A program made the translations under genes and the position numbers. Under the pieces are notes generated by a model. The model saw only the letters and a list, made by a program, of their open reading frames with translations. It searched no databases and had not been told where the DNA came from. Shown here piece after piece: positions 19,250 to 19,771 of a stretch of 64,000 nt of DNA. Position 1 is the first letter of the stretch. Each line of letters begins with the position of its first letter. Source of the stretch: a virus (taxonomy: Duplodnaviria; Caudoviricetes); IMG/VR virus record IMGVR_UViG_3300021399_000005, positions 32,001-96,000 of that record. One strand, 5' to 3'.

Positions 19250-19771
19250 TTAATTTGACCAGTCAAAATTTCCATTTTTAACTTTTCCAAACTTTGTCAT
19301 ATGAGTACCTATACAAATAGCATCGCTTTCATCTTGAGTAGCTTTTACCCCATATGTATTTAAAACAAAGGTTTGGGCATTTTTCTTTTGAACTTGTCTA
19401 GTTTTACCACTTATTTTTAAAGTAGATTTTCATGTATTTGATGAAACTATAGAATATGGTATATTAAGCTCTTGCGCAAGCTCTAATACAACTCCATAAA
19501 CATTTGCTAAAACTTTAAAAGTTTTTACATTATTTCCAACAGAAGCTTGTAATTGAATATCTTCAAAAGCTATTTGGTTTATTTGATATTTTTCTATGAG
19601 CTTAACTAATTCCTGTCTAATTGTAACTAGTCGTTTTCCAATTTCCTCTTGTTCTGTTCGTATTTTTCCTCAATCTTTTAGTTCCCCGTTCTGGAAATAC
19701 GCTCAACCCGACAACTTGCTCGCTTGGTCTAGGGCCAAAAGCCTAGTTTCCTGTGCTGCCGAATCCGCCAT
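19250..19771 (-). CDS. ruvC: Holliday junction resolvase, RuvC-like (173 aa, 3 TGA)
   Basis: LLALDQASKLSG*, IAFEDIQ, NT*KS, DESDAICIG; missing from the code-11 ORF track. Confidence 0.85.

What the first reader, a model, noticed from the sequence alone, without database searches (positions are those of the whole stretch)
19250..19771. RuvC is recoded although it ends a standard-code operon
Seen: starts inside dut, with TGA at 19703-19705, 19670-19672 and 19430-19432 at conserved SG*/ *G / T*K positions; all upstream operon genes lack in-frame TGA. Known: resolvases debranch DNA before packaging and can harm ongoing replication. Inference: recoding follows time of function rather than genome position or strand, allowing delayed translation from an early mRNA.
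Basis: partly seen in the sequence, partly recalled or inferred. Interest (0 to 1): 0.7.

Follow-up and report, generated by a model that had tools for sequence, protein, structure and literature searches.

The report
Stop-codon-locked resolvase gene in recoded phage
In a 167-kb gut-type phage that reads the stop codon TGA as tryptophan in its late genes, the only DNA-debranching enzyme (RuvC) carries three such codons although it is the last gene of an otherwise standard-code operon; relatives do the same with TGA or TAG, a clear new example of the published idea that such phages use a code switch to hold back late or dangerous proteins.

Summary
ruvC (19250-19771, minus strand) starts 29 nt inside dut. 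It has TGA at 19705-19703, 19672-19670 and 19432-19430, at columns that are W/Y, W/Y/H/F and invariant W in homologues.

It is the last gene of a predicted five-gene unit. An upstream terminator and a TGATATAAT extended -10 box (21294-21286) precede g166, g87, g86, dut and ruvC. A terminator follows at 19247-19229 and shows compensatory changes in relatives. The four upstream genes have 0 TGA and 5 TGG. The 45-gene replication block has no internal TGA outside one homing endonuclease.

In 80 related contigs the order nrdD-g166-g86-dut-ruvC is kept.
- TGA-recoded relatives: ruvC 40 TGA to 13 TGG; the four upstream genes 1 to 74.
- TAG-recoded relatives: TAG sits at invariant Gln columns of ruvC, often with none upstream.
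- Recoded codons lie towards the 5' end of ruvC, and its last Trp is always TGG. Late structural genes show no such bias.

A UGA-reading tRNA split by a group I intron lies about 700 nt downstream.

The most likely reading is a translational lock on a late-acting nuclease. This extends the model of Borges et al., which does not mention resolvases. This scan had already noted TAG-locked resolvases on other DNA. Timing and co-transcription remain untested.

The parts
19250..19771 (-). ruvC, RuvC-like Holliday junction resolvase. It has in-frame TGA (Trp) at 19705-19703, 19672-19670 and 19432-19430. Its last Trp is TGG at 19261-19259, and its stop is TAA at 19252-19250.
19778..19781 (-). GGAG ribosome-binding site of ruvC, six nt before the ATG and inside the 3' end of dut
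19743..20273 (-). dut (dUTPase). It has no TGA and no TGG, and its 3' end overlaps the ruvC start by 29 nt.
20254..21261 (-). Three overlapping genes of unknown function: g166 20761-21261, g87 20507-20770 and g86 20254-20514. Together they have 0 TGA and 5 TGG.
21286..21294 (-). Extended -10 box TGATATAAT, 25 nt before the g166 start. This is the predicted operon promoter, and it is kept upstream of g166 in many relatives.
21316..21343 (-). Terminator-like hairpin plus T-run that closes the preceding unit (nrdD C-terminal piece and an FNT-like gene)
19229..19247 (-). Intrinsic terminator directly after the ruvC stop. In ten sequences (window plus nine TGA-recoded relatives), 5 of 13 pairs show compensatory changes, followed by an invariant T6.
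18598..19197 (-). tm199: a protein of unknown function with an N-terminal hydrophobic helix (phrog_4105/4257). It has TGA at codons 27 and 89 and TGG at codons 84 and 141. It follows ruvC in the TGA-recoded relatives and in some others.
18252..18537 (+). tRNA-Trp with anticodon UCA (reads UGA), split in the anticodon loop by a group I intron of about 211 nt (about 18286-18496). This is the presumed key of the code switch. The minus-strand 84-aa ORF 18298-18552 over it is probably spurious.
23004..23768 (-). GIY-YIG homing endonuclease between two nrdD pieces, with 3 TGA and 0 TGG. It is a second recoded nuclease inside the standard-code block.

Best explanation
ruvC is a resolvase gene locked by a genetic-code switch.

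The phage infects a host that reads TGA as stop. Its replication and nucleotide-metabolism genes are written without TGA and can be translated at once.

ruvC is the phage's only recognisable junction resolvase. It is transcribed as the last cistron of the g166-g87-g86-dut-ruvC unit. Host ribosomes terminate at its 23rd codon (UGA, 19705-19703) and release a 22-residue peptide that lacks part of the catalytic tetrad.

Full-length RuvC can be made only after the phage's own UGA-reading tRNA-Trp (18252-18537, which must first lose a group I intron) is present. Debranching activity is thus confined to the packaging phase and kept away from replication forks and recombination intermediates.

Shown here:
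- the recoding and its conservation under two different code changes;
- its bias towards the 5' end of the gene;
- the predicted promoter and the covarying terminator;
- the suppressor tRNA.

Inferred:
- co-transcription with dut;
- a standard-code host;
- the time at which the tRNA becomes active;
- that delay is the property under selection.
For: 1. RuvC identity and an intact acidic tetrad: D23, E78, D155 and D158 are invariant. It is the only RuvC match in the genome, and there is no Endonuclease_7 or RusA match.

2. TGA sits at Trp or aromatic columns.

3. The genome is split by code. Late plus-strand genes have 245 TGA to 118 TGG. The 45-gene replication block has 0 internal TGA to 133 TGG outside one homing endonuclease.

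4. About ten minus-strand genes, the polymerase among them, carry their single TGA within the last few codons, consistent with TGA as their stop. This argues for a standard-code host.

5. Operon anatomy: a terminator, a TGATATAAT box, overlapping cistrons, no such box between 21286 and ruvC, and a covarying terminator after ruvC.

6. Synteny is kept in 80 loci. The TGA-recoded loci form one clade, and all of them have a recoded ruvC. In 12 dereplicated lineages ruvC has 40 TGA to 13 TGG and the upstream genes 1 to 74; 12 of 12 go the same way.

7. In TAG-recoded relatives ruvC has 1-5 TAG, mostly at invariant Gln columns (38:95 against 26:285 upstream; 11 of 12 informative lineages). Several lineages have no TAG upstream at all.

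8. Polarity: in the TGA clade every Trp but the last is TGA, and in the TAG lineages the last Gln is never TAG. Late structural genes show no bias; their last Trp codon is TGA in 24 of 35 genes.

9. A tRNA(UCA) lies next to the ruvC-tm199 pair in most TGA-recoded loci that reach that far (19 loci; none found in L004 or L076). Intron-free versions in L044, L058 and L059 are collinear with the window's two exons.

10. Literature: the T4 resolvase acts mainly at packaging and can cleave blocked forks (PMC3016281). T4 restricts the translation of late genes carried on early polycistronic mRNAs (PMC2988022). Borges et al. propose stop-codon gating of an intron endonuclease inside an early gene.
Against: - No expression data: co-transcription, the time of tRNA expression or splicing, and the appearance of RuvC are all unmeasured.
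- The same TGnTATAAT box precedes both TGA-free and TGA-rich genes. The sequence therefore does not say that the dut operon is early.
- In L004 and L076 ruvC appears to be transcribed on its own and is still recoded. Being on an early mRNA is thus not needed to explain the recoding.
- The lineages are related, so the pooled statistics overstate independence. The TGA clade may reflect a single origin.
- Three TAG-recoded loci (L056, L063, L078) have no TAG in ruvC.
- The always-TGG last Trp has no tested explanation.
Confidence: 0.62

Rival explanations
1. Permissive drift. RuvC is needed only after the code switch, so TGA and TGG are equivalent in it. AT-biased mutation then drives Trp codons to TGA, as in the late genes. 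No selection for a lock is involved.
For: The genome is about 31% G+C. The TGA share in ruvC (3 of 4) resembles that of late genes (245 of 363). Recoding persists where ruvC is transcribed alone, in L004 and L076.
Against: Drift predicts no positional pattern. In ruvC every Trp but the last is TGA and the last is always TGG across diverged lineages, whereas late genes show no polarity. TAG lineages show the same 5' bias, with the last Gln never TAG. Drift would still mean that early RuvC is dispensable, so it overlaps with the main reading.
Confidence: 0.2
2. ruvC has its own late promoter. It is transcribed mainly from a promoter inside the 3' end of dut, belongs to the late regulon, and is recoded for that reason. 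Its place behind dut is incidental.
For: A weak sigma-70-like match, TTGCCT-18-GATAAT, lies at 19817-19788 just upstream of the ruvC start. L004 has a terminator and a TGTAAAAT box between dut and ruvC, and L076 has ruvC on the other strand.
Against: Promoter-like hits in the region are no more frequent than in shuffles (38 against 28.3 +/- 6.1). There is no TGnTATAAT box between 21286 and ruvC. No terminator separates dut from ruvC, and the genes overlap by 29 nt. In most relatives ruvC overlaps or abuts the preceding TGA-free ORF. Read-through mRNA would carry ruvC in any case, so a lock would still matter.
Confidence: 0.13
3. There is no gating. The host itself reads UGA as Trp (code 4), or the TGA codons mark a decaying gene.
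For: Under code 4 all the genes are open.
Against: Against a code-4 host:
- The 45 replication genes have no internal TGA among 133 Trp codons, outside one homing endonuclease.
- About ten minus-strand genes, the polymerase among them, have TGA only in their last few codons, consistent with a stop.
- The phage carries its own tRNA(UCA).

Against a decaying gene:
- The full-length frame and the catalytic residues are conserved across relatives with 50-98% identity.
Confidence: 0.04

Closest known systems
TGA-recoded 'Agate'-type gut phages and the code-switch timing model (Borges et al., bioRxiv 10.1101/2021.08.26.457843; published in Nat Microbiol 2022 according to my own knowledge)
   Same: - A large phage from gut or rumen-type metagenomes.
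- TGA=Trp in structural and lysis genes, with replication genes in the standard code.
- A suppressor tRNA.
- A TGA-rich homing endonuclease inside an early gene, explicitly read by the authors as held back until late.
   Different: - The preprint names three preferentially recoded families: an intron endonuclease, a tail protein and a transmembrane lysis protein. It never mentions a resolvase, RuvC or Holliday junctions.
- Added here: the same gene is recoded under both TGA and TAG code changes, the recoded codons lie towards the 5' end, and there is a defined operon context.
- Membership of the Agate clade itself was not tested.
T4 translational delay of late genes carried on early or middle polycistronic mRNAs (RBS-sequestering hairpins; I-TevI, soc, e and others; PMC2988022). 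From my own memory, T4 gene 49 (endonuclease VII) is regulated this way (Barth et al. 1988).
   Same: A late-acting nuclease gene lies on a transcript that also encodes earlier functions. Its translation, not its transcription, is what is delayed. The T4 resolvase acts mainly at packaging (PMC3016281).
   Different: The mechanism differs: premature termination at recoded stop codons, relieved by a suppressor tRNA, rather than an RNA hairpin relieved by a late promoter. A local hairpin over the ruvC RBS is not significant here (z=-1.64). RuvC and endonuclease VII are unrelated folds.
RuvC of E. coli (1HJR) and of Lactococcus phage bIL67 (4KTW/4KTZ)
   Same: The profile of this family matches both (E=2e-4 and 2e-3). 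The acidic residues align: the D of LALDQ, the E of FEDIQ and the two D of QDESDA.
   Different: Sequence similarity is distant. No biochemical data exist for this branch. Neither known gene is recoded.
Earlier notes of this scan on TAG-locked resolvases in code-15 phages (e1-2903424, e1-5323603, e1-5689923, e1-3599771)
   Same: A dUTPase or replication block free of the recoded codon, directly followed by a RuvC-like gene rich in it.
   Different: Those cases use TAG=Gln on other genomes. This is the TGA=Trp counterpart. Here both versions are shown within one syntenic family.

Membership tests
RuvC crossover junction endonuclease (PF02075) | Profile match above the curated cut-off | tested here: met
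   34.2 bits against a 22.2 cut-off. phrog_827 'Holliday junction resolvase' E=1.4e-19.
RuvC crossover junction endonuclease (PF02075) | Four acidic catalytic residues (D, E, D, D in the RNase H-like fold) | tested here: met
   D23, E78, D155 and D158 are invariant in 22 homologues. They align with the E. coli RuvC motifs in the 1HJR alignment.
RuvC crossover junction endonuclease (PF02075) | Dimeric, structure-specific cleavage of four-way junctions | not testable with these tools
   This needs biochemistry.
Partially TGA-recoded (code 4) phage on a standard-code host | In-frame TGA at conserved Trp columns, concentrated in late genes | tested here: met
   RuvC columns are W/Y, W/Y/H/F and invariant W. 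Late genes have 245 TGA to 118 TGG; the replication block has 0 internal TGA to 133 TGG.
Partially TGA-recoded (code 4) phage on a standard-code host | Phage-borne UGA-suppressor tRNA | tested here: met
   ARAGORN with introns allowed finds tRNA-Trp(UCA) at 18252-18537. The group I intron scores 40 bits, below Rfam's cut-off of 50. The exons are collinear with intron-free tRNA(UCA) genes of relatives.
Partially TGA-recoded (code 4) phage on a standard-code host | Host reads TGA as stop | tested here: inconclusive
   The evidence is indirect. The polymerase and about ten other minus-strand genes have TGA only in their last few codons, consistent with a stop, and the early genes otherwise avoid TGA. 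The host is unknown. No RF1 or TrpRS gene is present in the phage.
Agate clade of Borges et al. | Placement in their terminase phylogeny | not tested
   Their sequences were not at hand. The resemblance rests on genome size, code, source and gene pattern only.
Code-switch-gated gene embedded in a standard-code transcription unit (Borges' intron-endonuclease case) | Family-wide preference for the recoded codon, against neighbours on the same unit | tested here: met
   12 TGA lineages: ruvC 40:13 against upstream 1:74. 14 TAG lineages: 38:95 against 26:285.
Code-switch-gated gene embedded in a standard-code transcription unit (Borges' intron-endonuclease case) | Actual co-transcription with the standard-code genes, and delayed protein appearance | not testable with these tools
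   Only predicted signals are available.
T4-type hairpin-mediated translational delay | Stable RNA structure sequestering the RBS on the long transcript | tested here: inconclusive
   The minimum-free-energy fold pairs part of the GGAG, but z=-1.64 and 13 of 200 shuffles fold as well.

The most novel reading that the evidence does not exclude
Locking the resolvase is a selected, convergent design and not a by-product. In this reading, phage lineages that changed code independently (TGA=Trp and TAG=Gln) each placed recoded codons at the 5' end of the same ruvC gene and kept its 3' end standard. The sole debranching nuclease would then be made only once a suppressor tRNA is mature. In this phage the tRNA lies about 700 nt away and must first be spliced by a group I intron. 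That would make resolvase production, and hence packaging, depend on an RNA-splicing step.
Probability: 0.3. Interest if true: 0.7.

Novelty: new member of a known kind. Interest (0 to 1): 0.45.

Why it matters
The published model says that recoded phages use the code switch to time lysis and virion genes. This case extends it to DNA processing.

The one enzyme that cuts branched DNA is the only recognisable DNA-metabolism enzyme of the replication block, apart from a homing endonuclease, that is written in the late code. The same holds under two different code changes, and the codon layout looks like a lock, not drift.

This gives a compact, testable system: one small gene, three codons and one tRNA. 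It could show whether stop-codon recoding really acts as a translational timer. It also suggests that premature resolvase activity is costly enough to shape codon choice.

Tried and rejected
I did not try to get round this.
- Search for a late-promoter motif: upstream regions of late genes share TGnTATAAT. The same box also precedes TGA-free replication genes, so it does not separate early from late and cannot date the dut-ruvC unit.
- Context explanation for the conserved last TGG: the base after TGA or TGG in late genes shows no clear difference (T follows TGA in 50 of 245 cases and TGG in 31 of 118). Late genes do not avoid TGA near their 3' ends. A -35-like TTGACT next to that codon has no properly spaced -10 and is absent in L004 and L076. 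The conserved TGG remains unexplained.
- Rfam on 17400-25400 in one call found no intron or tRNA. The tRNA intron and one nrdD intron appeared only when short stretches were searched. No intron was detected around the recoded endonuclease.
- RF1 and TrpRS 'code-change module' genes are absent.
- The ~230-nt 'gap' between dut and ruvC in some relatives holds an extra small TGG-using ORF that overlaps the ruvC start. It is not a promoter region.
Pfam gives nothing above the cut-off.
- The first Borges DOI was not held, so the preprint was used instead.

Full report
**What the window is.** The window is bases 32001-96000 of a complete 166.8-kb phage record with terminal repeats. Under TGA=Trp the plus-strand block 1-18220 resolves into long tail, fibre and endolysin genes that use TGA far more than TGG. 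Genome-wide, late genes have 245 TGA to 118 TGG.

The minus-strand block 19743-55028 holds 45 genes, including a 1282-aa polymerase, nrdD and dut. It has 133 TGG and only four TGA. Three of these are in a GIY-YIG homing endonuclease (23004-23768). The fourth is codon 1280 of 1282 of the polymerase, which is its ordinary stop. About ten further minus-strand genes carry their single TGA within the last few codons, consistent with TGA as their stop. This argues that the host reads TGA as stop.

**The observation.** ruvC (19250-19771, minus strand) matches PF02075 above its cut-off and phrog_827. It keeps the acidic tetrad. It is the only recognisable resolvase in the genome.

Its start (ATG 19771, GGAG six nt upstream) lies 29 nt inside dut. 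They fall on columns that are W/Y, W/Y/H/F and invariant W in homologues, so Trp is the right reading. The fourth Trp, three codons before the stop, is TGG.

**The transcription unit.**
- A terminator-like hairpin (21343-21316) is followed by TGATATAAT (21294-21286), a GGAG and the g166 start.
- g166, g87, g86, dut and ruvC overlap one another by 8-29 nt.
- No TGnTATAAT box lies between 21286 and ruvC.
- Directly after the ruvC stop comes a hairpin plus T-run (19247-19229). In ten sequences (the window plus nine TGA-recoded relatives), 5 of its 13 pairs show compensatory changes and the T6 is invariant.
- The promoter box before g166 recurs in relatives of all three coding types.

ruvC is therefore most probably the last cistron of a five-gene unit whose other four genes have 0 TGA and 5 TGG. 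This is prediction, not measurement. The same box type precedes both TGA-free and TGA-rich genes, so the unit cannot be dated from sequence.

**Relatives.** A scan of IMG/VR returned 80 loci with the order nrdD-g166-g86-dut-ruvC conserved. Coding density under codes 11, 4 and 15 sorts them into standard, TGA-recoded and TAG-recoded loci. On a tree built from the nrdD piece plus dut, which are almost free of recoded codons, the TGA loci form one clade (support 93). The TAG loci fall into about four groups.

Every TGA locus has TGA in ruvC at the same columns. In 12 dereplicated lineages ruvC has 40 TGA to 13 TGG, and the four upstream genes have 1 to 74.

In TAG loci ruvC has 1-5 TAG, mostly at invariant Gln columns such as the Q of LDQ and of FEDIQ. 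The ratio is 38:95 against 26:285 upstream. Several lineages have no TAG at all upstream. Three TAG loci have none in ruvC.

The standard-code sister group has TGG at the same Trp columns, so recoding happened in place. The lineages are related, so these counts overstate independence. Even so, two different code changes hit the same gene.

**A lock-like layout.** In the TGA clade every Trp codon of ruvC except the last is TGA. The last is TGG in every lineage that covers it. In TAG lineages the first Gln is TAG in 7 of 12 and the last in 0 of 12. Late structural genes of this genome show no such polarity; their last Trp codon is TGA in 24 of 35 genes.

Early stops give a harmless 22-residue peptide, whereas a stop three codons from the end would gate nothing. 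This pattern favours selection over drift. I could not explain why the last codon is actively kept as TGG.

**The key.** A note from this scan led me to 18252-18537 on the plus strand. Rfam's group I model matches the insert at 40 bits, below its cut-off of 50. The two exons are collinear with intron-free tRNA(UCA) genes at the same place in L044, L058 and L059. The same tRNA was found a few hundred nt from the ruvC-tm199 pair in most TGA-clade loci that reach that far: 19 loci, with none found in L004 or L076. No RF1 or TrpRS gene is present.

**Mechanism proposed.** Host ribosomes translate g166 through dut and stop at codon 23 of ruvC. Once the suppressor tRNA is spliced and charged, RuvC is completed. 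The resolvase then acts at the packaging stage, as T4 endonuclease VII does (PMC3016281), and is kept away from forks, which such enzymes can cut.

T4 reaches the same end with RBS-masking hairpins on early polycistronic mRNAs (PMC2988022). A comparable hairpin here is not significant.

**What is known.** Borges et al. describe these phages, the split use of the code and the timing idea. They include a TGA-rich intron endonuclease inside an early gene, but nothing on resolvases. Two literature searches found no report of a recoded resolvase. This scan has already noted TAG-locked resolvases on other genomes. Here the TGA and TAG versions are tied together in one family.

**Verdict.** This is a new member of a known kind.

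Noticed in passing
window 18252-18537 (+): A UGA-reading tRNA-Trp(UCA) is split between anticodon positions 34 and 35 by a group I intron of about 211 nt. Relatives have the same tRNA with introns of 178-322 nt or with none. The 84-aa minus-strand ORF 18298-18552 over it is probably spurious. A TTTACA-16-TATCAT promoter-like site (18199-18226) and a GC hairpin (18228-18247) lie just upstream.
   Followed up: partly
window 21870-26219 (-): nrdD is in three pieces (25242-26219, 23949-24317 and 21870-22883), separated by two GIY-YIG endonuclease genes. The gene at 24453-25175 has 0 TGA and lies in a sub-threshold Rfam group I match (41 bits). The gene at 23004-23768 has 3 TGA and 0 TGG, and no intron was detected around it.
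   Followed up: partly
window 21328-21882 (-): A short (184 aa) formate/nitrite-transporter-like gene (PF01226, 60.6 bits) sits directly after nrdD. The anaerobic reductase uses formate as reductant (my own knowledge), so this may be a phage-borne formate channel. Homologues are present in L044, L058, L059, L079 and L081.
   Followed up: no
window 26338-26340 (-) and other minus-strand genes: The polymerase ends in TGA, with a TAA three codons later. About ten minus-strand genes have TGA only in their last few codons and would gain a few residues after the code switch.
   Followed up: partly
window 19259-19261 (-) and the same column in relatives: The last Trp of RuvC is TGG in every recoded relative that covers it, whereas all earlier Trp codons are TGA. 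Neither codon context nor a nearby signal explains this.
   Followed up: partly
L003:4627-4866, L005:1956-2195, L036:5777-6016, L046:5754-5993 (+): In several TGA-clade relatives a small ORF of about 79 aa with 1-3 TGA lies between nrdD and g166, inside the otherwise TGA-free co-oriented block. It is absent from the window.
   Followed up: no
whole genome; window 2561-2569, 21286-21294, 26274, 30211 and others: The same extended -10 box, TGnTATAAT, precedes both late (TGA-rich) and replication (TGA-free) genes. This raises the possibility that timing rests more on translation than on promoter classes.
   Followed up: partly
window 18598-19197 (-): tm199, the gene after the ruvC terminator, has an N-terminal hydrophobic helix and a charged, coiled-coil-like body. 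It is recoded in most TGA relatives (0-4 TGA). Only about 25 nt separate the terminator T-run from its RBS, so how it is transcribed is unclear.
   Followed up: no
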